Positions 728-21,611 of a stretch of 21,632 nt of DNA are shown here, piece by piece. Within the stretch, counting starts at the first letter, position 1. Each line of letters begins with the position of its first letter. A program made the position numbers and the translations under genes. Source of the stretch: Candidatus Bathyarchaeota archaeon (GTDB taxonomy: Archaea; Thermoproteota; Bathyarchaeia; Bathyarchaeales; Bathycorpusculaceae); contig CAVTZU010000025.1 of assembly GCA_963739305.1 (NCBI GenBank), positions 1 to 21,632 of the forward strand. The letters are read 5' to 3'. The notes beneath the pieces are model-generated. The model was not told the origin of the DNA. It saw nothing but the letters and a program-made list of their open reading frames with translations, and searched no databases.

Positions 728-1900
728 TTAGCTATAACTTTTCTGCCAAACTAGAAGTCCCAGAAACTTTTCTTTCTGTTCTTCCGTGTATCCTTTCGCT
801 TCTCTCTCCAAGTGCCAGATTTCGCGCGCCACGCTTAAAGCCAAAGCGCGCGGCTTTTTGCGTTTGATCCATTTCGCCAGCAAAAATGGGAGAACTAGAG
901 TAACCCCCAGCGCGGTCAGTAGTATTGGCAGAAAGCGTCGGGCAAGCATTGTCAAGTCTTGGCTTTCGAATGCGAAGGGCACGACTGTGCTATTATCGAT
1001 GCTTGGAAAATCCCATAACACTTTTCCAGAAGCCAACGTATTGTTGTTGCAGGAAAAGATGATTTCGTAGGGGTTTTGCAGAGGATGCTTATAATATTGT
1101 GCATCTACGCCGGGATAGGTTGCACCTCCCCACATTAAGTCGTGGTCAAGGTAGGAGTGGTCGCCTTGAATTGACCAGGCTTTATCCACTAGTGCCCAGC
1201 CCGTTTGTCTGAGCATCCTGGGTTCTTTCAAGTCGACGTGCCAATGAGAATCGGTCATGGGCTGATTGCTTATAATACCGAACTGAAAGTAGTTGATGTA
1301 TCGGCTGAATGGAAACGGATCGATGACCACGTTTCCAGCGTAGAACTTCGTTATTATGTTCTGGCAGTTGGGCATGCTGGTCACGTTCACTGAGGTGAGT
1401 GCCTCCGTTCTTCCAGAAAAGGAGAGTGAATAGTCCACGAAGCCTTTGCTGTTCCAGTTCTGGAGCAAAGTGATCGGCGTTGATGCGCTGATCCCTGAGA
1501 TTTGCCAAGTGTAGCTGTAGACGAGAGAGGACATTGGGTATTGGAGTGGAGGCGTCTCTTCCTCTGTTTGATGAAGCCCAAAATCCACGAAAAGCCTGCC
1601 TGAGGCGTCGAGCACGAGCATCATGTAAAAACCATAATCCACGTTTCGAAAAATATGATCTTGACCTTGGACGAACATCCCGCCACCGAGCCAACAACCA
1701 GGTGGGAAAAGCTCTGGCTGGGTTGAGGGGAAGCTGACGGTTATCTCGGTGGCATTGACCGTTTCCCGAAGGCTCAGGTCATCAGCTATCACATGAAAAC
1801 CCGCAGCGTAAGGTAGATTGGAATTAAGCGCGGCTACGTGGTGTTCGGTGGTGGGCGCTATTTGGAACAAATTGGAGCCCTTTGCTGGGGAAATAGGCAA
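728..1900 (-). CDS. Hypothetical membrane-anchored secreted protein; signal peptide apparently detached by a 1-bp frameshift near 1916
   Basis: 390-aa beta-rich ORF with a C-terminal TM helix (FLPILLTALGVTLVLPFLLA) and basic KRKK. Adding one base near 1916 joins GTG at 1944 and gives the signal-like MRLHSALLAILISCALPISPAKG. Confidence 0.6.
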   Translation of the reverse strand: MPISPAKGSNLFQIAPTTEHHVAALNSNLPYAAGFHVIADDLSLRETVNATEITVSFPSTQPELFPPGCWLGGGMFVQGQDHIFRNVDYGFYMMLVLDASGRLFVDFGLHQTEEETPPLQYPMSSLVYSYTWQISGISASTPITLLQNWNSKGFVDYSLSFSGRTEALTSVNVTSMPNCQNIITKFYAGNVVIDPFPFSRYINYFQFGIISNQPMTDSHWHVDLKEPRMLRQTGWALVDKAWSIQGDHSYLDHDLMWGGATYPGVDAQYYKHPLQNPYEIIFSCNNNTLASGKVLWDFPSIDNSTVVPFAFESQDLTMLARRFLPILLTALGVTLVLPFLLAKWIKRKKPRALALSVAREIWHLEREAKGYTEEQKEKFLGLLVWQKSYS

Positions 1901-11361: not shown

Positions 11362-12389
<1,028 letters not shown>

Positions 12390-12488
12390 TGTTGTTTGGT
12401 CTCCTTTAGGCTTGGTTTGGTGTTGTATATGAGTTCTGCGAGTTTTTGGTAAAAGATTGCCTTGTCCTTCTTCTGTTGGTTCAATATT

Positions 12489-12674
12489 TCAACTCATTTT
12501 TGGTTGAGTTTCGATTTCTCGGAGTGTGACCACTAGGACTTTGATTACTCCTCTTGGAGTTCTGTACGTTCCTATGTGGTCTAGGGCGATTATCTGTTCA
12601 CTCGGGTTCTCGGTTCTCAACATATCCATCACACATCCATTCACTTTCGTTGCGTTGACGCGACGAGAAGGCAA
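12489..12674 (-). CDS. Small hypothetical element protein
   Basis: Short ORF co-directional with and upstream of int(N); start uncertain. Confidence 0.3.
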   Translation of the reverse strand: MPSRRVNATKVNGCVMDMLRTENPSEQIIALDHIGTYRTPRGVIKVLVVTLREIETQPKMS

Positions 12675-12810
12675 TACGCATTTCTAAAAGGGAGTCTAGA
12701 AGGAAGCTAACGCATAGTTGCAAGATTGGCTTCCGTACGGAATGAGAGACGACTTTTCCTCTTAAATTTCTAATGAGGGAAATGCCTATGCCTTCGAGGA
12801 GATCGTTCAT
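12598..12810 (-). CDS. Small hypothetical element protein
   Basis: 70-aa ATG ORF in the element backbone; no recognisable motif. Confidence 0.3.
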   Translation of the reverse strand: MNDLLEGIGISLIRNLRGKVVSHSVRKPILQLCVSFLLDSLLEMRIAFSSRQRNESEWMCDGYVENREPE

Positions 12811-12958
12811 GCATCATTCAGTTTAGTCGTGGTTTCACGTTTAGCGATCGGGTGTTTCAGTGCCTGTTCCATTGTATTTTTAGCTCTATTAGTGTTGCAT
12901 TTCCCGTTTTTCGCGTAGTGAGTGCCTACGATTGACGTGTGTTCGTAGTTTAGCTGTC

Positions 12959-12970
12959 GTGCGCGCTAAT
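12959..12970 (+). repeat. Cargo-boundary motif copy 1 (GTGCGCGCTAAT)
   Basis: Intergenic, 16 nt beyond the NosD gene stop. Confidence 0.7.
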
Positions 12971-12986
12971 CAGACAGAACTGAGGT

Positions 12987-14492
12987 TCAAGCTTTTTTCT
13001 TTCTTTTCTTGATTGCTGTTAGTGCGAAGGTTAAGAAGGCAAAGAGCAGAAGGTAAATAACAAACTGAAACTCGGGCACCGTGTATGGGTTCATTAACGG
13101 ATAGTTGTCCATGTTGTCGTTGGGTACCTCGTACGGTGTGTCTCCTATGCCGTCGTGGTTCTTGTCTATGCCTGTGTAGTCGCCCCAGTGGTTTCCTCCT
13201 GATGGGTAGCCGTTATCCCAAACGTTGGAAGCTTGCACAGTATATGCTTCTATTTCGTTGTTTACGATGTTGTTGTGGAAGAACGAGTTGTTGTTTGCCT
13301 GCATTATTTCAATACCGTAGTAGTTGCCTTCAATAAGGTTCTCGACGATGGTGTTGTTGTCCGAGTAATAGTTGAGGTTGATGCCCATCTCGTACTGAAT
13401 GCTGCTGCCTGACATGTTTCCGACTATTCGGTTTCCTGAAATTGAGTTAAAAGAGGAATTGAAAAGCTCAAGTTGCGAAAAGAAATTCATCTCAATTTGG
13501 TTGCTGGACACGTTGTTGTTGTAGGAATGGTCAATTTTGATGCCAAAGGAGTTGTTGAGTATCTTGTTCGCGATAATCATGTTATGATCTCCCATTACGT
13601 GAAGACCGCCATAGCCCCTATTGTTGTTGAGTATCGTGTTCTCGCTTATCGTGCTGAACGATCCACCCAGAATTACTGCGTCGCCCTGTGTCACGTTTGT
13701 GATGATGTTATTGGTGAAACTTGACTGGTTAAAATTCCACAAACCAACTCCTGAAGTGCTGTTGTTGAACAAACTGTTCCGGATCGTGCAGTTATTTGCG
13801 CCAATGGTCTGCAAAGGAGTTTGCGTTTCTGTGATGGTCGCGTTTTCTATGAGACAATCCTTCACGTTGATGAGTACTATGCCGTCTTTGGTGAGGGCGG
13901 GTTCTTGCACCGTCACGTTGTTGCAGTTGATCAGCGCCACGTAGCCCGCGTCGCTTGGGATTTGCCCGTTTTCCCTGTTGATCCAGAAGTACACGGGTTT
14001 ACCGTCAACTGTGTTCGATTCGTCTATGTCTTCGGTAGTGTTTTGAAGGCTAAGGGGGTCAAACAAAATAATATTTTGTTGGTTGCTTCTTAGACTGATG
14101 TTTCGGAGTTTCGTGTAGTTGGCGTTGCCTAGGAAGAGTCCAGCCGTTCCGTTCTGCACCGTTAGATCTTGAATTGTCGCGTTTGACACGTCATAGATAC
14201 TGAGAACTGAAATATTAGGGATGCCGTTTCCGTCGATAACCGTTGCGTCTTTGTTCTCACCGACAAGCGAGATCGTCTTGTTGACCTCAACGAGTTCATA
14301 GTATGTTCCATTTCGAACGTACACAATGTCTCCCGCGTTTGCAGCATTTATCGCTGCTTGTATTGATGAATAGTCGTCTGGAACGGTTATGGTGTTAGGT
14401 GCAGCATAGAGTTGGCAGGTTGCGTGATTAAGAGGCATGAAACTGATGATGATCGAGATGAGAATGATCGGGAGGAAAAGTTGCCCTCTCAA
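12987..14492 (-). CDS. NosD/right-handed beta-helix cell-surface protein with PEF-CTERM
   Basis: Signal peptide, ITVPDDYSSIQAAINAANAGD, Asn-rich PbH1 repeats, WDNGYPSGGNHWGDY...DGIGDTPY...DNYPLMNP, VPEF-TM-KKRKKK. Confidence 0.9.
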   Translation of the reverse strand: MRGQLFLPIILISIIISFMPLNHATCQLYAAPNTITVPDDYSSIQAAINAANAGDIVYVRNGTYYELVEVNKTISLVGENKDATVIDGNGIPNISVLSIYDVSNATIQDLTVQNGTAGLFLGNANYTKLRNISLRSNQQNIILFDPLSLQNTTEDIDESNTVDGKPVYFWINRENGQIPSDAGYVALINCNNVTVQEPALTKDGIVLINVKDCLIENATITETQTPLQTIGANNCTIRNSLFNNSTSGVGLWNFNQSSFTNNIITNVTQGDAVILGGSFSTISENTILNNNRGYGGLHVMGDHNMIIANKILNNSFGIKIDHSYNNNVSSNQIEMNFFSQLELFNSSFNSISGNRIVGNMSGSSIQYEMGINLNYYSDNNTIVENLIEGNYYGIEIMQANNNSFFHNNIVNNEIEAYTVQASNVWDNGYPSGGNHWGDYTGIDKNHDGIGDTPYEVPNDNMDNYPLMNPYTVPEFQFVIYLLLFAFLTFALTAIKKRKKKA

Positions 14493-14539
14493 TGATAATC
14501 GAGTAGATAATATTTTTCTGGGCTTTTATCGCTTTCGTC

Positions 14540-14551
14540 GCGCGCGCTACT
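14540..14551 (+). repeat. Cargo-boundary motif copy 2 (GCGCGCGCTACT)
   Basis: Intergenic, 5 nt beyond the SIR2 gene stop and upstream of NosD. Confidence 0.7.
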
Positions 14552-14556
14552 GGCGA

Positions 14557-15684
14557 TCATTTTTGCGTGATGTTATCCACGTATTCTCCCAAATGGCGAT
14601 CGTAATGACTCTTGCTTACGGAACGAATTGCACAGTTCAATTTTTGGAAGACTTTTTCATCTCCGAAATTTCCTTGAACGGGGATTATTCGGTTGTCAAG
14701 CTCAGTTGAGACAGAAGCTACCATATTTTGAATGACTTTTTCTGGCTCTGGATTAACCACGATTAAGACACTGCTAGGGACTTTCTCAAGATTCTCGACG
14801 ATTGCAGTATTCACTGGATCATCCCTGAATGAGTATCCAATTGCGACCAGTTTTTGCCACTTCTGGTTTTTGAAAACACTGTAGTAATTAAAATAAGGAC
14901 ATTTCAGAATCTGTTTCTCTCCAGTTGGATAAATTATCATCTTTTCTGTTATGTTTACAGGAATCTCACGGCCTTGGGGATCATCTGTGGACTTGAAGAT
15001 GCCATCTTTCTCTCTGAACTCGTATATTGAACCGTGAAGTTTGACTAGCCACTGATCAGATCTACTGTAAGTGGTAAAATCTTGCTGTTTTAACGTGTGA
15101 TCTCCTTGTACAATTTCAAAACCATCGGCGAAAGGTTGAGCACGCGAGCGCTTTGTCCTGAAATACGATTCAACAACCATGTCATAATTTGTTGTAACGA
15201 TTGTCTCCCATGTTCTAACTTCAAAGGCTCTTACTTGACCCATCTCGGTTGTCCAGTATCGCGTGTCAAGAACGTCACATTCCCTCAAAACACCGAATAG
15301 TCTATCATACGTTGGTTCGATCAATTTTTTCAGTTCAGGTTTCAGTCTGCATTCATTGTACAGAAAGTCTCTAAAAACTTGCCCCAGCTCACTTGATTTG
15401 TCTGTACGTTCTATGTCTTTAAGATCCTTGCTTACATAGGCCATTACGGGGTTGCTTGATCTTATTGTCTCTTCTATGTTCGCCAATCCTTCTATTATCG
15501 TGAACACGGCTTCAAAATCGGGTTCGACGCCATATCTTTGCAGACTCGACACAATTTTCTGAGCTATGCTGCTGAAACCACGATCTATCATGATTTGGAT
15601 AAGATCGCTGCTCATTTCCTTCAGAGTTTTTATGCCGAAAATCTTTGATGCTCCAGCACCAAGAAAGATCATAGTGAACAGCAA
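14557..15684 (-). CDS. SIR2-like (SIR2_2) domain protein, putative NADase defence effector
   Basis: IFLGAGAS, IVTTNYD, VKLHGS, IIYP, IGYSFRD motifs. Confidence 0.88.
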   Translation of the reverse strand: MLFTMIFLGAGASKIFGIKTLKEMSSDLIQIMIDRGFSSIAQKIVSSLQRYGVEPDFEAVFTIIEGLANIEETIRSSNPVMAYVSKDLKDIERTDKSSELGQVFRDFLYNECRLKPELKKLIEPTYDRLFGVLRECDVLDTRYWTTEMGQVRAFEVRTWETIVTTNYDMVVESYFRTKRSRAQPFADGFEIVQGDHTLKQQDFTTYSRSDQWLVKLHGSIYEFREKDGIFKSTDDPQGREIPVNITEKMIIYPTGEKQILKCPYFNYYSVFKNQKWQKLVAIGYSFRDDPVNTAIVENLEKVPSSVLIVVNPEPEKVIQNMVASVSTELDNRIIPVQGNFGDEKVFQKLNCAIRSVSKSHYDRHLGEYVDNITQK

Positions 15685-15719
15685 TCAACTAGAATGCTAT
15701 GCTGTTTAAATCATTTTAC

Positions 15720-15731
15720 ATTAGCGCGCAC
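15720..15731 (-). repeat. Cargo-boundary motif copy 3 (reverse complement GTGCGCGCTAAT)
   Basis: ATTAGCGCGCAC, just upstream of the TTTAAA box (15705-15710) of the SIR2 gene. Confidence 0.7.
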
Positions 15732-15882
15732 TAGTTGTTGTTTTGAGTTTTGTGGGTTGGAGCACGAGCGTGATGCGAGCGCGACAAGCGTGATGAATAT
15801 GAAGCTGGATAGAAGTCGATAGAAATTTAGAGGTCTTGACTCTATTTAGATATGATAGATGTGAAGTGGAGGGATATATTTC

Positions 15883-16101
15883 ATGGGTGGCGGTGGCGCG
15901 GCTGCTGCTGGTTTGCTCCTCATTCTGCAGGGACAGCTTAGGCGACTCATTGAGGTCGGAGCGGTTTCATATGAGACCCGCAAGAGCGCTAAGGAGATAG
16001 GACTCAATGAGAATCAGCTTAGAACATTGGTATCAATGAAGTGGGCACAGGTTTCTGACGATGGAAAGTATTATGCCATAATTAGAGTCAAACGACGCTA
16101 G
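15883..16101 (+). CDS. Small hypothetical protein (hydrophobic N-terminus, possible wHTH-like C-part)
   Basis: 72 aa, GGAGG SD-like sequence upstream, KSAKEIGL...TLVSMKWAQVSDDGKYY. Confidence 0.6.
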   Translation: MGGGGAAAAGLLLILQGQLRRLIEVGAVSYETRKSAKEIGLNENQLRTLVSMKWAQVSDDGKYYAIIRVKRR

Positions 16102-16104
16102 GAC

Positions 16105-16116
16105 ATTAGCGCGCGC
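16105..16116 (-). repeat. Cargo-boundary motif copy 4 (reverse complement GCGCGCGCTAAT)
   Basis: ATTAGCGCGCGC, 3 nt after the 72-aa ORF stop; ACATTAGCGCGC is identical to 15718-15729. Confidence 0.7.
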
Positions 16117-16185
16117 TCTGTGTTTTTGCGATTGAAAAAAGGGGGTTTGGTTTAATGGCTTTGCGTTGTCGTCTGGAACGTGCGA

Positions 16186-16203
16186 GTGAGCCGAACGGCT
16201 CAC
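16186..16203. other. Perfect GC-rich hairpin GTGAGCC-GAAC-GGCTCAC
   Basis: 7-bp stem with a 4-nt loop between convergent genes. Confidence 0.55.
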
Positions 16204-16247
16204 GAGCTACCTTGCTCTGGGGCGAATCCTCAAAATCCTGCAATCAT

Positions 16248-16862
16248 CTATTTTTCAGTAGTTTTCGTTTTGATCTGCGTTCGAGCTTCTTTCAAACCGT
16301 CGTCATTCAACCAGAATGGCTTATCCCTTCCTTTCTTGGCTTGAGAAGCATCTATAAAATGCTTTCTTCGAAGTGATCTCAAAGCCAACCCAAAATCTCG
16401 ACCAGGAAGTGGAATTCCATTTGGACCTTTCAGAAGTCTTTTCATGTAAGATACTTCAACTGACTTTTGCTGCATGCCTACTTGAAGCGTGTAGGTGATG
16501 AGGAGTATCGCTTCTTCTACGTCCTTCGGTTTCTTTGCCAGAAATGGAACCAAAGTTTCAAATTTCGCATCTTTTCTGAGTTCTATGACTTTCCCAACGA
16601 GATCTTTGGAAGTATCGAGATCCCTGACTATTTGATCATATTCTCTTCCTTCGGCGGGTGGCCCTCGCGGTGTTGGCGGATGAGCTTCTTGTTGCTTTTC
16701 GGTTGATGGTTCACCAGTAGTTGACCCTTGAACAGGTAGGTTTTTGATGTGATCGAATACCTCCTTGAAGACCTCCTGTACTGAATCACCATAGTATTCG
16801 ATCTCCTTGTCAGCCCATTTAATTCTGAACCCAGAATGAGCATTTTTCCTTTCTTCAGTCAT
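16248..16862 (-). CDS. Hypothetical protein with probable C-terminal winged-helix domain
   Basis: Short N-domain (FRIKWADKEIEYYG), Pro-rich linker, C-terminal ALRSLRRKHFI...FWLNDDGLKEA wing pattern. Confidence 0.65.
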   Translation of the reverse strand: MTEERKNAHSGFRIKWADKEIEYYGDSVQEVFKEVFDHIKNLPVQGSTTGEPSTEKQQEAHPPTPRGPPAEGREYDQIVRDLDTSKDLVGKVIELRKDAKFETLVPFLAKKPKDVEEAILLITYTLQVGMQQKSVEVSYMKRLLKGPNGIPLPGRDFGLALRSLRRKHFIDASQAKKGRDKPFWLNDDGLKEARTQIKTKTTEK

Positions 16863-16930
16863 TTTTTATCAAAATAAGTTACACCGAAAGGCAATTTAAG
16901 CATATCACCTTATCGTAGGCTAGACCTGAA

Positions 16931-17890
16931 TTGTCTGAACGCCCTAAGAAGTATCCTGATGAAGATGTAATAGAGAAAATACTTGATCAAGTTCATGACG
17001 TCGCTTGGAATAATTTGATTCTGGATAAGGGTCAGGAGAATAAACTCCTTGAAGATCTAAAGTGGGTACTTGACATCTGGAACAAACAGTATTTGGGTCA
17101 TGATCGGCTGACAGAAATCGTGAGTCAGAACTACCTTTCAGCATTGCCAACTTGTGGAGACAAACCTCGAATCTGTAAAGAACTGGATTTGGTGATTTGT
17201 TTCTTTCAGCATTACATCTATGCTTTTGAGGAGTTTATGACTCGTGGATTTCGTGATTCAGTAATTCGATGTGGACTTGTATGCGAAAGACTTGTAAAAA
17301 GACTGGCTGTTGCTGATGGGCATCCCGAAGTACTCAATATTTTCAGGTTTGAGGATAGAGCGAACAAAGTCATGAGTCTTCTATCAGGTCGTGTCAATGA
17401 CATTCAATTTCTGATAAGTCGAATGAAATACATCTATTCCAAAAGGACAGAAAGGGGAGCACATGACACAGGAGCAGCAGGGATCCTGATAGCAAAATCT
17501 TGCATCAGTGAGATTCCAATAACTTACATGGAGTATCTTAATGCTCTTGAAAGACTAGGTCATAAGATTGGACCTAAGAATGAGTTGATTGAACTTGTCA
17601 ATGAAACGGTTAGTATTGGCACCACGATGATCGTTATCAGACCAGGAGAACCTACTGACCCTGAATCTATCTTGATTTCCATGTTTTCACAGAACTATTT
17701 TGCGCAACCTAGATCATTTGCTGAGATAACCGCTGCAGTTGTGAATCAAGAGTTTAATATACCCAAAACAACTCTTTGGCAGGCTTTGAAAAATCTATGT
17801 GCAAAGAAGATCTTGACTAGGAGCGGGCGTGGTATATATGTTCAAAGAACACCACCAGAGAAGTACTACAATAAGGAGATCACAAAGTAA
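16931..17890 (+). CDS. Putative HEPN/Abi-like protein with C-terminal winged helix
   Basis: DSVIRCGLVCERLVK helix and Rx5H motif (RTERGAH); C-terminal PRSFAEI...TLWQALKNLCAKKILTRSGRGIY. Confidence 0.65.
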   Translation: MSERPKKYPDEDVIEKILDQVHDVAWNNLILDKGQENKLLEDLKWVLDIWNKQYLGHDRLTEIVSQNYLSALPTCGDKPRICKELDLVICFFQHYIYAFEEFMTRGFRDSVIRCGLVCERLVKRLAVADGHPEVLNIFRFEDRANKVMSLLSGRVNDIQFLISRMKYIYSKRTERGAHDTGAAGILIAKSCISEIPITYMEYLNALERLGHKIGPKNELIELVNETVSIGTTMIVIRPGEPTDPESILISMFSQNYFAQPRSFAEITAAVVNQEFNIPKTTLWQALKNLCAKKILTRSGRGIYVQRTPPEKYYNKEITK

Positions 17891-17963
17891 AATCCTGTGC
17901 GCACTACCGCCCTTAGTTTTGCTCTCACACGCTTGTTGTCAATAAAAAAAGATAGATTTGTGT

Positions 17964-18899
17964 TTATTTGCGTTTTCGGTATAGTTTGATTCCATCTATG
18001 TCTTGTATGTATTCGAATCCTGCTTCTAGGAGTGTGGTGGCTTCTTTGACGTTGGTGGCTGTTCTGGTTATGTATTGTTGTTCTTCTTGGTTGTCCAGTA
18101 AGTGGGTGTATCGGTCTGTGGTGTTTGAGTGTTTGTGTCCTAGTAGGTATTGGGTTCTTTTTAGGTCTGTTTTGTAGTATGTTGTGGTTGCGAAGTAGTG
18201 TCTTAGGTCGTATAGTCTGATTCTGTGTATTGATGGGTCGTTTACCTTTTTGGCGAGTCGGTTTCTGACGACTCGGTATTCTTTGCCGTATCTTGTTTGG
18301 TCGCCTTTGAACAGCTTGTCGTTGGGTTGTTTGTTTTCTCTGGTTATGTAGTCTCGGAGAAGTAGTGTTAGCTGTTCGGGGATTTTGATTTTTCTTGGTG
18401 CTCCGTGTTTTGCGGTGGTTGGGAAAACATATCTTTGTTCTAGGTCTATGTCTTTGGTTTTGAGTTCGAAGATTTCTACGGGTCTTAAGCCTGTTTCCAT
18501 GCTGAAGCGTAGTTTGAGGGCTAATAGTTTTCCTGCGTCTGCTATGATTTGCTCGATTTTGGTTCTTGCTGGTATTTGTATTTCTTTGGCGTTGTCGTAG
18601 AATCTTTTGGGTTTTTTCCATTGTATTTGGTTGTATTCACAGAATTTTTGATAGGCGTACAAGTATCGGTTTTTATAGTTGTTGCTTCGTTCGAGTTGTT
18701 TGACAAATACTTCTACTGTGTGGGGGTTGTTGAGGTCTGTGTTTTTGTCTAGGCTGCTTATCATCCATTCGTAGTTTCTGATGTCGGTTTTGCATGTTCC
18801 GTTTTGTTTTAGTTGGTTGAGGAATTTGGCTACGGCGTTAAGATTTCGGGTGTTGATGCGTGTTTTTGGGCTTATGAGCCATAAGTCAACACCTGTCTT
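17964..18899 (-). CDS. int: int(C): catalytic fragment of tyrosine recombinase/integrase (first internal ATG 18764)
   Basis: ETGLRPVE (R), AKHG (K), YDLRHYFAT, LLGH, TDRY (Y). The frame is open from the att core to the stop, with no ATG between the upstream stop at 18969-18971 and 18764. Confidence 0.92.
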   Translation of the reverse strand, partial: KTGVDLWLISPKTRINTRNLNAVAKFLNQLKQNGTCKTDIRNYEWMISSLDKNTDLNNPHTVEVFVKQLERSNNYKNRYLYAYQKFCEYNQIQWKKPKRFYDNAKEIQIPARTKIEQIIADAGKLLALKLRFSMETGLRPVEIFELKTKDIDLEQRYVFPTTAKHGAPRKIKIPEQLTLLLRDYITRENKQPNDKLFKGDQTRYGKEYRVVRNRLAKKVNDPSIHRIRLYDLRHYFATTTYYKTDLKRTQYLLGHKHSNTTDRYTHLLDNQEEQQYITRTATNVKEATTLLEAGFEYIQDIDGIKLYRKRK

Positions 18900-20791
18900 T
18901 CGCCAGCTTCGTTGGTTAGAATTCTCTTCAGAGCGTCGTAAACTTCGGTCGTCGACATCGGCCTCCCATTATATTTGAGGATTCGGAAGTTAGCATTGAT
19001 TCCCGTCTTCTCCTTCAGTATCTCTGCAAGCTGCCCCGAGTAGTTGTTCTCGATCCCGATAACTCTCCTTTTATCCTTCAGCAACCCAGCGACATATTCT
19101 TTCGGAAAAGGATTGATCACCCGAACCTGCAAGAACCCGACTTTGAAGCCTTCTCCCTCTAGTTTGGTGATTGCCTCGATGACCGCTCCTTTCGGAGACC
19201 CCCAACTGATGATCATGTTCTCAGAATTCTCTTCACCGAACACGTTGAGCCTTTCTTCAGTCGGTATTTCTTTGTCAGCAGTTTCTAGCTTCTTCATTCT
19301 TTTCTCCATCATCATATTCCTGTTTAGAGGTTCTTCGCTTATGTGCCCAACTTCGTTGTGTTCATCACCAGTGTACCATTGAATCCCGTTTCTTGTTCCC
19401 AGAAAAGCTCTCGGGGAAATCCCGTTTTCTGTGAAACGAAAGCGCCGATACTGTTGACCTTCAAGATCTTTTTCACCGATAATCGTCCCTCGTTGAATCT
19501 TGAATTGACCAACGTCAAAGATCTTGTACGTTTGGGAACTGTTGGCCAAAGCCTTATCGATGAAATGGATGACGGGCATCTGATACTTCTCTGCATAGTT
19601 GAAGGCCAAGGCTGCATCGTAGAAACACTCCTTTATGTCGCCTGAAGCGAGGACTATCCGCGGGAAGTCTCCGTGTCCAGCATGAACGGCGAACTGCAGG
19701 TCGGATTGGCCAAAACGCGTGGGCAAACCGGTTGCGGGTGCCCCCCGTTGATAATAAGTGATCACGAGCGGAACCTCACAGTTTCCTGCCCAGCTCAAAC
19801 CTTCAACCATCAATGAGAACCCAGGTCCAGAAGTTGAGGTTGCAGCTCTTGCTCCAGTCAACGCAGCTCCTGAAGCAGAGTTCACAGCGGCAATTTCATC
19901 CTCGGTTTGAACTACCACTATCGATGCCTCACCTTCCCTCGTCTTGAACACCTCGTGAGCCTCCAAGTACTCACTCTCGTCCGCAGCCGGGGTGATTGGA
20001 TAGTACGTTTGCACTCGGCATCCGCCCAAGATTTTACCTATCGCCACAGCTTGATTCCCTGAGATGAATATCCTTTCCTCGTTGGTCTCATTCTTCTTTA
20101 GAACTTGAGGGAACGTTTCCTTGAAAGCCTGCTCCGCATAATCGTAAGCTTCGTTCAGGGCTACCACGTTCATTGCGGCGATCTTTGGCCTGTCCGAAAA
20201 CACGTCGTTAACGGCCTTCTCCACTACTCCTCTGTCGTACTTCAGAAGGGCAAAGGAGACTCCAACGGTCAGTACATTGATCATGCGTGCCAAGCCAGCT
20301 GTCTTGTCGGTTTTCAGTTTCGCAGCCACTTGTTTCAGCAGATCCATGTATGGAACCATGAATGTCTCCACTCCTCTCTTGCGTGCCGCACCAAGCAAAT
20401 CGGCCACTGTCTCACCTACCCCAGCTTGACTCATCTCGTTTCGAACTTGGTCTTTGTATTCATTCGGCAAAGTGTAGATGCTGAGCACTTTCGTTCCGAC
20501 CTGGTCTTTGTCAACGATCACCCCGCCGTTAGAAACAACTTCGTTTATATGCCTGACGACGGTTTCAGCATCAAATGCCGCAAGCAAATGTACGTCATTC
20601 ACGTTTGCCTGAACTTCCTCGTCTGAGATGCGCAGATGGAAGTAGCTGTGAAGACCTTTGATATTAGAATGATACTCTCTCTTGCCGTACACGTAGAGAC
20701 CGCCGTAGCCGCAGGCTCTGCCGAAAATGTTAGCTGCAGAATCAACCCCCGAGCCTTGTGGCCCACCAGCCATCCAACTAACATCCTTCAT
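18872..20791 (-). CDS. korA: 2-oxoacid:ferredoxin oxidoreductase alpha subunit (fused gamma-alpha)
   Basis: GGPQGSGVDS, REYHSNIKG, YYPITPA, QTEDEIAA, TSGPGFSLMVE, GDEH, WGS, ENNYSGQL; GGAGGA SD before ATG 20791. Confidence 0.93.
   Translation of the reverse strand: MKDVSWMAGGPQGSGVDSAANIFGRACGYGGLYVYGKREYHSNIKGLHSYFHLRISDEEVQANVNDVHLLAAFDAETVVRHINEVVSNGGVIVDKDQVGTKVLSIYTLPNEYKDQVRNEMSQAGVGETVADLLGAARKRGVETFMVPYMDLLKQVAAKLKTDKTAGLARMINVLTVGVSFALLKYDRGVVEKAVNDVFSDRPKIAAMNVVALNEAYDYAEQAFKETFPQVLKKNETNEERIFISGNQAVAIGKILGGCRVQTYYPITPAADESEYLEAHEVFKTREGEASIVVVQTEDEIAAVNSASGAALTGARAATSTSGPGFSLMVEGLSWAGNCEVPLVITYYQRGAPATGLPTRFGQSDLQFAVHAGHGDFPRIVLASGDIKECFYDAALAFNYAEKYQMPVIHFIDKALANSSQTYKIFDVGQFKIQRGTIIGEKDLEGQQYRRFRFTENGISPRAFLGTRNGIQWYTGDEHNEVGHISEEPLNRNMMMEKRMKKLETADKEIPTEERLNVFGEENSENMIISWGSPKGAVIEAITKLEGEGFKVGFLQVRVINPFPKEYVAGLLKDKRRVIGIENNYSGQLAEILKEKTGINANFRILKYNGRPMSTTEVYDALKRILTNEAGERQVLTYGS
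18879..18899 (+). repeat. Right att site (CCATAAGTCAACACCTGTCTT)
   Basis: Identical to 12324-12344; lies within the last codons of korA. Confidence 0.93.
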
Positions 20792-21118
20792 CAAATTCCT
20801 CCGTTCCTGAATATTCAAGGCAATCTGGCATCGAGTCTGAGTCTTAACCACCAGTTGATTTGTCGGCGCCTATACAGCACTCGCAACCTGAAGATTCACC
20901 GCAGTACGGGCATACGCACTTGCAATCGTCAATCGGAAACCCACAATTATCGCATATAGGTACGCCTTTATTGATTTTCATTTTCATCATCCAAGTTCTT
21001 CTAATCGATGTCTTTGGGAATTAAGCTTTCGTAACACCTCGCCGAAGGAGAGTGCTTGTTGAAAACGAGAAAAAGAGGAGATGATGGTTGCCGAATTCAC
21101 TTTAACAAAGTGCTACTG

Positions 21119-21559: not shown

Positions 21560-21599
21560 ACATTTTCACCTAGTCTGTTTGCTTCAGTTTGTTTCCAAC

Positions 21600-21611
21600 G
21601 CGCGCGCTAAA
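21600..21611 (+). repeat. Copy of the boundary motif outside the element (GCGCGCGCTAAA)
   Basis: 11/12 match to copy 4; intergenic, at the window edge. Confidence 0.5.

What the first reader, a model, noticed from the sequence alone, without database searches (positions are those of the whole stretch)
12959..16116. Cargo genes delimited by a second 12-bp motif (GYGCGCGCTAAT) in > > < < orientation: candidate cassette or shufflon system
Seen: four intergenic copies at 12959(+), 14540(+), 15720(-) and 16105(-), each at a gene boundary; three lie 3-16 nt after a stop codon. Direct pairs enclose NosD (1581-bp unit) and the 72-aa gene (385-bp unit), and an inverted pair encloses SIR2 with its TATA box. 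A degenerate copy at 17897-17908 (GTGCGCACTACC) separates the HEPN-like gene from the integrase. The motif is unrelated to the att core and lacks the long attC hairpin of classical integrons. Inference: these are recombination sites or scars through which single genes are captured, excised or inverted, an integron-like gene-capture platform with minimal sites.
Basis: partly seen in the sequence, partly recalled or inferred. Interest (0 to 1): 0.88.

Follow-up and report, generated by a model that had tools for sequence, protein, structure and literature searches.

The report
GC-repeat motif bounding archaeal gene cassettes
A 12-base GC-rich palindrome that sits between the cargo genes of this archaeal island occurs at hundreds of gene boundaries in the variable part of the genome, and recently copied or swapped DNA segments often begin and end at it.

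Summary
The motif is real: 3 exact copies plus 1 one-mismatch copy, against 0.00 expected. It is not special to this island. It is the local form of a palindrome, TA-(GC)4-TA. The host is a Bathyarchaeia MAG with 424 intergenic (GC)n runs. The 12-mer was found in 8 of 10 other same-genus genomes and 3 of 30 outside the genus.

The finding passes its own refutation tests. The motif lies in 3% of spacers between syntenic orthologs, against 17-25% beside non-conserved genes. Ends of repeated or exchanged DNA fall on it 5-15 times more often than on control words. That share rises with sequence identity: 22-35% at 95% identity or more, 1-7% below 80%.

Co-assembled strain variants show a 4.2-kb cargo segment between two motif copies opposite a single copy. 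They also show a cassette replaced exactly between motif copies. The window's NosD unit is homologous to a paralog from motif to motif.

The integron and shufflon readings are not supported. There is no IntI, no attC, no inversion and no tight recombinase linkage. The mechanism is unknown.

The parts
12959..12970 (+). Motif copy 1 (GTGCGCGCTAAT), 16 nt after the NosD-like stop. It is the 3' edge of the NosD unit.
   Evidence: Homology to C11 ends here.
14540..14551 (+). Motif copy 2 (GCGCGCGCTACT, one mismatch; run 14539-14547). It lies 5 nt after the SIR2 stop and 8 nt upstream of the NosD TATA-like box. It is the 5' edge of the NosD unit.
   Evidence: Two HSPs end here (C11, C13).
15720..15731 (-). 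Motif copy 3, 9 nt upstream of the SIR2 TATA box (TTTAAA, 15705-15710). It is the left edge of repeated module A.
   Evidence: Five HSPs start here. The motif is kept at this place in other metagenome copies (loose ends).
16105..16116 (-). Motif copy 4, 3 nt after the stop of the 72-aa gene and followed by a T-run.
   Evidence: No repeat end falls here.
17897..17908 (+). Degenerate copy GTGCGCACTACC, 6 nt after the stop of the 319-aa gene.
   Evidence: It is not a (GC)3 run and no repeat end falls here.
21599..21609 (+). Fifth copy (CGCGCGCGCTA), upstream of the OFOR alpha gene and 25 nt from the contig end.
   Evidence: Relatives G001 and G002 also carry a run upstream of their OFOR alpha gene.
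12987..14492 (-). NosD-like beta-helix gene. It is the cargo of the motif-to-motif unit 12966-14543.
   Evidence: Pfam NosD 4.4e-23. It belongs to a paralog family of 28 members. It is 65% identical at protein level to the C11 paralog.
14557..15684 (-). SIR2-like gene (probable ATG at 15672), lying between motif copies 2 and 3.
   Evidence: Pfam SIR2_2 5e-10. PADLOC Aga_SIR2 3e-22.
15883..16101 (+). 72-aa gene of no known family. It lies inside the segment 15787-16155, which other copies of the element lack.
   Evidence: Joints 15786->16156 occur in all 4 runs.
15720..15830 (+). Module A, a repeated non-coding module whose homology starts at motif 3.
   Evidence: About 9 copies in the genome.
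16146..16210 (+). Module B, a conserved non-coding module (hairpin GTGAGCC-GAAM-GGCTCAC) that lies near the integrases of this element family.
12314..12347 (+). attL-type direct repeat of the island, at the start of the OFOR beta gene.
   Evidence: 34 nt, 88% identical to 18869-18902, with a 21-nt identical core.
18869..18902 (+). attR-type direct repeat, at the end of the OFOR alpha gene.
   Evidence: A metagenome contig joins 12323 to 18879, skipping 6555 nt.
17964..18764 (-). Tyrosine recombinase of the island.
   Evidence: PF00589 7.7e-21. It scores below the cut-offs of both the XerA and the integron-integrase models.

Best explanation
The 12-bp motif is the local form of a genus-specific intergenic palindrome, TA-(GC)4-TA. 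This palindrome marks the ends of self-contained accessory-gene cassettes: motif, BRE/TATA promoter, gene, stop, motif. Neighbouring cassettes share one copy. Shown: the sites are concentrated in the flexible genome, and homology between paralogs, strains and species tends to stop at them, most strongly for recent events. Shown in single cases: one site opposite two sites flanking 4.2 kb of cargo, and two different cassettes between the same pair of sites. Inferred: DNA joining at or between motif copies inserts, deletes and replaces cassettes. This could be integration and excision of a one-site circle, or double exchange with incoming DNA that carries the same sites. The enzyme is unknown and acts in trans, because the cassettes carry no recombinase. 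The island's own integrase works at a different site, the 21-bp att core at the OFOR alpha/beta junction.
For: Enrichment. There are 742 (GC)n runs of 6 nt or more, and 424 lie in the 14% of the genome that is intergenic. Only GC/CG dinucleotide runs show this bias: 8-15 fold, against about 1 fold for the others.

Clade limits. TAGCGCGCGCTA occurs at 29 sites in the own genome. It was found in 8 of 10 other same-genus genomes and in 3 of 30 genomes outside the genus. The reversed control gave 0 everywhere.

Flexible genome. The motif is in 8/285 spacers between syntenic orthologs. It is in 25/141 at synteny breaks, 103/620 with one ortholog and 171/689 with none. In convergent plus divergent spacers alone, which cannot be operon-internal, the counts are 4/79 against 16/60 (p=4e-4). 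G001 replicates this: 13/295 against 33/179, 173/662 and 207/675.

Homology ends between species. Within 5 nt of the point where G000/G001 flank homology stops there are 12 motifs against 4.0+-1.8 permuted (G000) and 15 against 4.5+-1.9 (G001). Inside the homologous part there are 4 against about 28.

Repeat ends. 96/742 motif sites carry a self-BLAST end, against 0.4-4% for six control words. In G001 the figure is 159/989 against 0.9-3.0%. The share of ends at the motif rises with identity. In G000 it is 17/78, 11/65, 27/384 and 27/1906. In G001 it is 14/40, 49/157, 196/999 and 168/2502. Between species it is 4/12, 16/68, 22/231 and 24/2190.

Single cases. C2 has a 4.2-kb two-gene insert between two TAGCGCGCGC copies, while C3 has one copy. 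C13 and C17 hold replaced segments of 1985 and 2881 nt, with the motif at all four junctions. None of these segments encodes a recombinase.

The window. NosD unit 12966-14543 equals C11 13469-15069. Seventeen HSPs are bounded by the motif at both ends, where about 3.4 are expected.

Contig ends. 7/72 lie within 20 nt of a run, against 0.62 expected.
Against: The motif accounts for a minority of junctions. Only 24/285 interspecies homology ends have a motif within 5 nt. Among chained structural differences, no junction has the motif in 2/3 indels and 13/17 replacements (G000 self), 2/2 and 16/19 (G001 self), and 26/30 replacements (G000 against G001). Simple one-ORF insertions between conserved neighbours rarely carry it: 3 of 45 at either border.

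Natural variants of the island (L225-L227) lose homology 10-45 nt from motif 1 and have no run there. Metagenome joints in the island lie 40-55 nt from motif copies. HSP ends scatter from -12 to +5 nt around the run edge.

No enzyme tracks the motif. C5-methylase and IS110-type transposase were not found in G000 or G001, and integrase counts are as high in motif-free genera. Twelve bp is shorter than any known tyrosine- or serine-recombinase site.

Gene calls are crude ORF calls, so the 'no ortholog' class includes spurious ORFs. The high-identity repeats of G000 are partly co-binned strains (contamination 7.8%). Only one relative was compared genome-wide.
Confidence: 0.55

Rival explanations
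1. The motif is a boundary signal of transcription units, such as an insulator, an operator for a dimeric DNA-binding protein, or a 3'-end element. Accessory genes carry it with them. Homology stops there because function stops there, or because it is the only short homology that unrelated cassettes share.
For: The motif is a palindrome, as expected for a dimeric binder. It is enriched 0-10 nt after stops: 34 against 13.7 in tandem spacers, and 31 against 19 in convergent ones. It is also enriched 40-60 nt upstream of starts (33 against 21.3) and avoided at 0-40 nt (23 against 50). In the window it sits 8-9 nt upstream of two TATA boxes, abutting the BRE position. Spacers with 2-5 copies number 63. 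Presence in the flanks of orthologs co-occurs: OR 6.5 for the 3' flank and OR 5.9 for the 5' flank.
Against: It is nearly absent beside conserved genes, even in convergent and divergent spacers (4/79). None of the 21 motif-bearing syntenic spacers is shared between the two species. Differential decay predicts no rise with identity, yet ends at the motif rise from 1-7% to 22-35%. At 96-98% identity, homology runs through about 600 nt of shared spacer holding two other copies and breaks at the third. No T-run or further conserved flank is seen. No RNA data were available.
Confidence: 0.25
2. There is no dedicated system. Short alternating GC tracts are fragile or Z-DNA-prone microhomologies. Illegitimate, microhomology-mediated or topoisomerase-linked joining happens at them, and the tracts spread as a by-product.
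For: The core is 8-10 bp of perfect self-complementary sequence, present hundreds of times. The C2/C3 pair fits deletion between 10-bp direct repeats. HSP ends scatter within and around the run. No enzyme was found. That alternating GC tracts are deletion hotspots is recalled knowledge, not a result of any call.
Against: This does not explain the preferred TA flanks and the 8-bp length peak. It does not explain the 15-fold intergenic excess confined to one genus. It does not explain precise replacement of one cassette by another at both ends.
Confidence: 0.12
3. The motif is a restriction site (GCGCGC class). Cutting and re-ligation of cohesive fragments inserts DNA and regenerates a site on both sides.
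For: The core is a 6-8-bp palindrome. One site opposite two sites flanking an insert fits. In-vivo restriction-ligation recombination is recalled from the literature, not from a call.
Against: No C5-cytosine methylase (PF00145) was found in G000 or G001, and it was found in only 2 of 10 other same-genus genomes. Restriction sites are usually avoided, not enriched. N4/N6 methylases were not tested.
Confidence: 0.04
4. Chance or assembly artefact.
For: G000 is a MAG with 7.8% contamination and overlapping contigs.
Against: Shuffles give 0.00 expected copies. The motif is far shorter than assembly k-mers. The pattern replicates in a single-contig genome of another species.
Confidence: 0.02

Closest known systems
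Neisseria dRS3 repeats and intergenic mosaic elements (NIMEs); passages read in PMC1797815
   Same: Both are short repeats with inverted symmetry, present in hundreds of intergenic copies in one genus and often several per spacer. Both flank short variable segments. Both are associated with diverged or exchanged neighbouring genes. In both cases a binding site for a site-specific recombinase acting on incoming DNA has been proposed, not shown.
   Different: dRS3 is 20 bp with 6-bp arms and a variable centre. Here there are 12 bp with an invariant GC centre. dRS3 is a proven integration target of a phage with an IS110/Piv-type enzyme, and none was found in G000 or G001. Here whole promoter-bearing genes lie between copies. 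The host is an archaeon.
Integron cassette arrays (IntI, attI, attC), including archaeal integrons; passages read in PMC9668308
   Same: A single gene or a few genes sit between recombination-site-like repeats placed just after stop codons. The one-site against two-site (empty/filled) logic fits. Cargo is accessory.
   Different: There is no IntI, no 60-140-bp structured attC and no attI or common promoter. The cassettes have their own TATA boxes and both orientations. Sites are scattered over the whole genome, not in one array.
dif modules bounded by Xer sites on Acinetobacter plasmids (recalled; not read here)
   Same: Discrete gene modules are bounded by short sites for a host recombinase that acts in trans. 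The modules lack their own recombinase.
   Different: Xer sites are 28 bp, with two 11-bp arms and a 6-bp spacer. No such extended conservation exists here. XerA involvement was not tested.
Shufflons (Rci with sfx sites) (recalled)
   Same: Short repeats lie between gene segments, near a tyrosine recombinase in the window.
   Different: No inversion was seen. The segments are whole genes with promoters. The sites are genome-wide.

Membership tests
Integron | Integron integrase with the IntI-specific domain | tested here: not met
   TIGR02249 scores 44.8 bits against a 265-bit cut-off. NF011946 scores 24.2 against 435.
Integron | attC sites of about 60-140 bp with imperfect inverted repeats | tested here: not met
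   Only T-A-(GC)4-T-A is conserved and the flanks are at background (n=257).
Integron | Promoterless cassettes in one orientation behind attI/Pc | tested here: not met
   The SIR2 and NosD units each have their own TATA-like box 8-9 nt from the motif. Gene orientations are mixed.
Integron | A cassette flanked by two sites where the empty locus has one | tested here: inconclusive
   One clear case, C2 against C3. The other 2 of 3 G000 indels and both G001 indels show no motif.
Shufflon | Inversion of segments between inverted sites by a linked recombinase | tested here: not met
   No strand-changing joint appears among the 15 of 35 joints listed. Linkage to integrases is weak: 2.93 against 1.80 per 10 kb. 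Contigs cannot exclude rare inversions.
NIME/dRS3-like intergenic recombination repeats | Hundreds of intergenic copies of a short symmetric repeat, specific to a clade | tested here: met
   424 intergenic runs in G000 and 593 in G001. Genus-limited.
NIME/dRS3-like intergenic recombination repeats | Arrays with short variable segments between copies | tested here: met
   63 spacers hold 2-5 copies. Repeated blocks of 68-99 nt are bounded by the motif at both ends.
NIME/dRS3-like intergenic recombination repeats | Association with exchanged or diverged neighbouring DNA | tested here: met
NIME/dRS3-like intergenic recombination repeats | Use as an integration target by an IS110/Piv-type enzyme | tested here: not met
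   PF01548 has no match in G000 or G001. It matches 2 of 10 other same-genus genomes.
Xer/dif-type modules | A 28-bp site with two arms and a central spacer | tested here: not met
   No conservation beyond 12 bp.
Restriction site (GCGCGC class) | Cognate cytosine methylase in motif-bearing genomes | tested here: not met
   PF00145 is not found in G000 or G001. N4/N6 methylases were not tested.
Archaeal oligo-T terminator | A T-run next to the element | tested here: not met
   T frequency in the flanks is 25-34% beyond the TA. Only copy 4 in the window has a T-run.
REP/BIME with RAYT | A 20-40-nt hairpin repeat plus an IS200-like Y1 transposase | not tested
   The repeat is too short for a hairpin. 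PF01797 was not searched.

The most novel reading that the evidence does not exclude
This Bathyarchaeia genus runs a genome-wide cassette-exchange system. An as yet unidentified trans-acting enzyme recombines a minimal 12-bp palindrome, TA-(GC)4-TA. Promoter-bearing single-gene cassettes (surface proteins, STAND ATPases, defence genes such as SIR2) move as one-site circles or by two-site replacement, within and between species. This would be an archaeal, dispersed counterpart of integrons that needs neither attC hairpins nor an adjacent integrase.
Probability: 0.3. Interest if true: 0.92.

Novelty: new variant of a known kind. Interest (0 to 1): 0.78.

Why it matters
Bathyarchaeia are among the most abundant archaea in peat, soil and sediment, and none of this clade is cultured. 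How their large accessory genome turns over is unknown.

A short site that marks where cassettes of surface, sensing and defence genes are gained, lost and swapped gives a sequence handle for predicting variable loci. It can also help delimit cassettes in fragmented MAGs and guide a hunt for the enzyme. That enzyme would have an unusually small site and possible tool value.

The work also shows that a motif which looks like a local integron-like feature is a property of the host genus. This changes how the island should be read.

Tried and rejected
Ideas considered and set aside:
- General microsatellite slippage: rejected, because only GC/CG runs are intergenic-enriched.
- Operon confound for the synteny result: rejected by the convergent/divergent test.
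- A single paralog family or MITE driving the signal: no family dominates among motif neighbours, best p=0.004 before multiple-test correction. Eight of the ten representatives were sent to Pfam; the two longest were left out. The eight comprise a glycosyltransferase, an SDR, a wHTH regulator, an M29 peptidase, a dockerin protein, a NosD-like protein and two with no hit.
- Simple insertions between conserved neighbours: 45 were found and only 3 carry the motif at a border. Many are probably spurious ORFs.

Searches that led nowhere:
- Rfam on 15500-18200: only sub-threshold snoRNA-like noise.
- ARAGORN: no tRNA in the window.
- Module B folded as RNA: z = -1.0, unremarkable.
- Module B in viral contigs: 0 exact matches.
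- Enzyme hunts: PF00145, PF01548 and PF00589 do not track the motif.
- Literature: GCGCGCGC + intergenic + archaea gave 0 papers. Two broader searches gave nothing on this motif; I saw listings and abstract starts only. Supplements are closed and might hold motif lists I could not see.

Sequencing runs:
- No RNA holder was listed.
- Depth over NosD-SIR2 (0.4-13) is lower than over the flanks (about 30-60). The tool warns that contig depth cannot rank parts, so I do not use it as evidence.
- The 20 joints not shown were not seen.

Orientation of the TA-rich flank relative to the gene, and further G001 examples, could therefore not be computed.


Full report
**The observation.** The exact 12-mer GYGCGCGCTAAT occurs three times in the window: 12959 (+), 15720 (-) and 16105 (-). 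Dinucleotide-preserving shuffles expect 0.00. The fourth copy, at 14540, has one mismatch (GCGCGCGCTACT). The 8-mer core GCGCGCTA occurs five times against 0.37 expected, and the fifth copy is at 21602. The degenerate copy at 17897 exists but is weak.

**Setting.** The window is a whole contig (C25) of a 2.32-Mb, 47% GC archaeal MAG. Record titles of same-genus loci name Bathyarchaeia from peat and soil.
- The window encodes TFB, SUI1 and an HMG-CoA synthase/thiolase cluster.
- The cargo genes lie in a 6.55-kb island between the beta (11362-12327) and alpha (18872-20851) subunit genes of a 2-oxoacid:ferredoxin oxidoreductase (OFOR).
- The island is bounded by 34-nt direct repeats with a 21-nt identical core.
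- In five relatives the two subunit genes overlap by 8 nt with nothing between them. A sixth relative (G005) has a different island, with a 32%-identical integrase, at the same junction.
- A metagenome contig joins 12323 to 18879, so the island-free allele exists in nature.
- The island integrase is a generic tyrosine recombinase, not an integron integrase.

**The motif belongs to the host genus, not to the island.**
- Genome-wide there are 29 exact copies of the 12-mer against 1 for the reversed control.
- There are 742 alternating GC runs of 6 nt or more. Of these, 424 lie in intergenic DNA, which is 14% of the genome by my crude ORF calls.
- Aligning 257 intergenic GCGCGCGC sites gives a symmetric consensus, T-A-GCGCGCGC-T-A, with nothing conserved outside it.
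- No other dinucleotide run shows such an intergenic excess.
- The 12-mer palindrome was found in 8 of 10 other genomes of the genus (7-19 copies in five of the six that are 86-98% complete, 0 in G003 at 89%). It was found in only 3 of 30 genomes from other genera, with zero control hits.
- In OFOR loci, runs of (GC)4 or longer occur at 1.19 per 10 kb in genus-level relatives and at 0.03 in the next tier.

I fetched the complete single-contig genome of a same-genus species (G001; median protein identity 74% over 1220 reciprocal best hits).
- The motif is present in 8/285 spacers between syntenic ortholog pairs.
- It is present in 25/141 at synteny breaks, 103/620 with one ortholog and 171/689 with none. 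This holds within spacer-length bins.
- Operons do not explain it. In convergent and divergent spacers alone the counts are 4/79 against 16/60 (p=4e-4).
- Seen from G001 the pattern repeats: 13/295 against 33/179, 173/662 and 207/675. None of the 21 motif-bearing syntenic spacers is shared.
- Motif density falls with the ortholog fraction of 10-kb bins (Spearman -0.43).

**The second refutation test: do breakpoints coincide with the motif?** They do, well above chance, but only for a minority of breakpoints.
- I extended alignments outward from orthologous gene ends. In 285 flanks the homology stops within 400 nt. Motifs are almost absent from the homologous part (4 against about 28 permuted) and pile up within 5 nt of the endpoint: 12 against 4.0+-1.8 in G000 and 15 against 4.5+-1.9 in G001. 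Only 24/285 endpoints have one.
- Within the genome, 96/742 motif sites carry the end of a self-BLAST match, against 0.4-4% for TTTAAA, (AT)n, GGAGGAGG, T6/A6, G5/C5 and other GC palindromes. In G001 the figure is 159/989 against 0.9-3.0%.
- The share of match ends that lie on the motif rises with identity. In G000 it is 1.4% below 80%, 7% at 80-90%, 17% at 90-95% and 22% at 95% or more. In G001 it is 6.7, 19.6, 31 and 35%. Between the two species it is 1.1, 9.5, 23.5 and 33%.
- A boundary that merely marks where selection stops would not show this trend. Junctions formed at the motif would.

**Single cases.**
- Contigs C2 and C3 are 96% identical strain variants. C3 has one TAGCGCGCGC where C2 has two copies flanking 4.2 kb. 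That segment holds a dockerin-type protein and a 904-aa binding protein, with another motif between them.
- C13 and C17 are 98% identical. They share about 600 nt of spacer containing two motif copies, then diverge exactly at a third copy. They rejoin at another copy after 1985 nt (two NosD-like genes) or 2881 nt (a 938-aa STAND/TPR protein).
- None of these segments encodes a recombinase.
- Seven of 72 contig ends lie within 20 nt of a run, against 0.62 expected. The window's right end is one of them.

**In the window.**
- The unit 12966-14543 (NosD-like gene with its TATA-like box) matches C11 13469-15069 at 73% nucleotide identity. The homology starts at motif 2 and stops at motif 1.
- A second match (C13) also ends at motif 2.
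- Five matches start at motif 3, which is the left edge of a repeated non-coding module A.
- Motifs 2 and 3 lie 8-9 nt upstream of the NosD and SIR2 TATA boxes. The array therefore reads motif 3, SIR2, motif 2, NosD, motif 1, with neighbouring units sharing one copy.
- Motif 4, the degenerate copy and the copy at 21599 are not repeat ends.

**Evidence that limits the claim.**
- Most chained structural differences have no motif at any junction: 13/17, 16/19 and 26/30 replacements.
- Small insertions between conserved genes rarely have it.
- Natural variants of the island that share the 70-aa gene at 90% protein identity lose homology 10-45 nt from motif 1 and have no run there.
- Metagenome joints inside the island lie at the edges of modules A and B, 40-55 nt from motif copies.
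- Match ends scatter from -12 to +5 nt around the run edge.
- Enrichment near 12 integrases is slight.
- None of three enzyme families tested tracks the motif.
- My gene calls are crude, and G000 contains co-binned strains.

**Reading.** I judge it most likely (0.55) that the palindrome is the place where cassettes are joined. Joining could be by site-specific exchange of one-site circles, by two-site replacement, or by an assisted short-homology process. The enzyme is unknown and encoded elsewhere.

The main rival (0.25) is a transcriptional boundary or operator element carried by accessory genes. Its position just after stops and just upstream of promoters, and its palindromic form, fit that view. 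Its absence beside conserved genes and the identity trend do not. The two readings are not exclusive.

The closest described system is the dRS3/NIME repeat of Neisseria, for which the same hypothesis was proposed (passages read). Integrons, including archaeal ones (passages read), share the cassette logic but fail three defining features here.

My searches found nothing in print on this motif. I saw only listings and abstract starts, and supplements are closed.

Noticed in passing
window 12314-12347 and 18869-18902; island 12348-18868: A 6.55-kb integrase island sits exactly at the junction of the overlapping OFOR alpha and beta genes and regenerates both gene ends with a 34-nt repeat. Five relatives have the intact junction. 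G005 has an unrelated island at the same spot. A peat metagenome contig carries the empty site.
   Followed up: partly
window 16146-16210; G000 C15 6996, 108313, 110178, 114027; G001 848536-859876: Module B is a 35-45-nt non-coding element kept at 0-3 mismatches across species that share only 74% protein identity. It was found in 5 of 10 other same-genus genomes and in none of 30 outside the genus. The copies whose surroundings I checked lie within about 8 kb of an integrase of this element family. It contains the hairpin GTGAGCC-GAAM-GGCTCAC, and most copies are followed by a T-run. Function is unknown, there is no Rfam match, and it was not found in viral contigs.
   Followed up: partly
window 15720-15830; G000 C8 10926, C30 61, C15 7076/52215/54164, C26 12673/13922, C28 33869: Module A is a roughly 110-nt repeated non-coding module that begins with the (GC)n motif and holds a GC-rich mirror repeat. 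The copy at C15:54164 is followed within about 70 nt by a tRNA-like end. Metagenome depth over modules A and B is about ten times that of the host flanks, which points to many copies in the community.
   Followed up: partly
window 12598-12810 (-): A 70-aa gene of no known family recurs at the far end of related integrase elements (C15 49146 and 10391; G001 852826 and 862119). It is 90% identical in three metagenome contigs whose neighbouring cargo differs.
   Followed up: partly
window 14557-15684 (-) and 16931-17890 (+): The SIR2-like gene matches defence-type SIR2 models (PADLOC Aga_SIR2, 3e-22). The 319-aa protein has only a weak AbiEi-like winged-helix hit at its C-terminus (4e-4). I could not confirm a HEPN domain with Pfam, NCBIfam or PADLOC.
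   Followed up: partly
G000 contig pairs C2/C3/C6, C13/C17, C12/C21, C7/C31/C8/C30, C23/C35/C29, C33/C5/C34: Many contig ends overlap other contigs at 95-99% identity. This fits co-binned strain variants and the reported 7.8% contamination. It is useful for finding structural variants but inflates repeat counts.
   Followed up: partly
window 823-829 and 846-852: Two (GC)n runs 17 nt apart lie inside the 390-aa ORF 728-1900 (-), which has no Pfam hit. The ORF call there may be wrong.
   Followed up: no
L229 (metagenome contig, 8.1 kb held): This locus has 9 distinct (GC)n runs in 8 kb: 16 overlapping GCGCGC hits against 1.7 expected. It is a further motif-dense region in an uncultured relative.
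   Followed up: no
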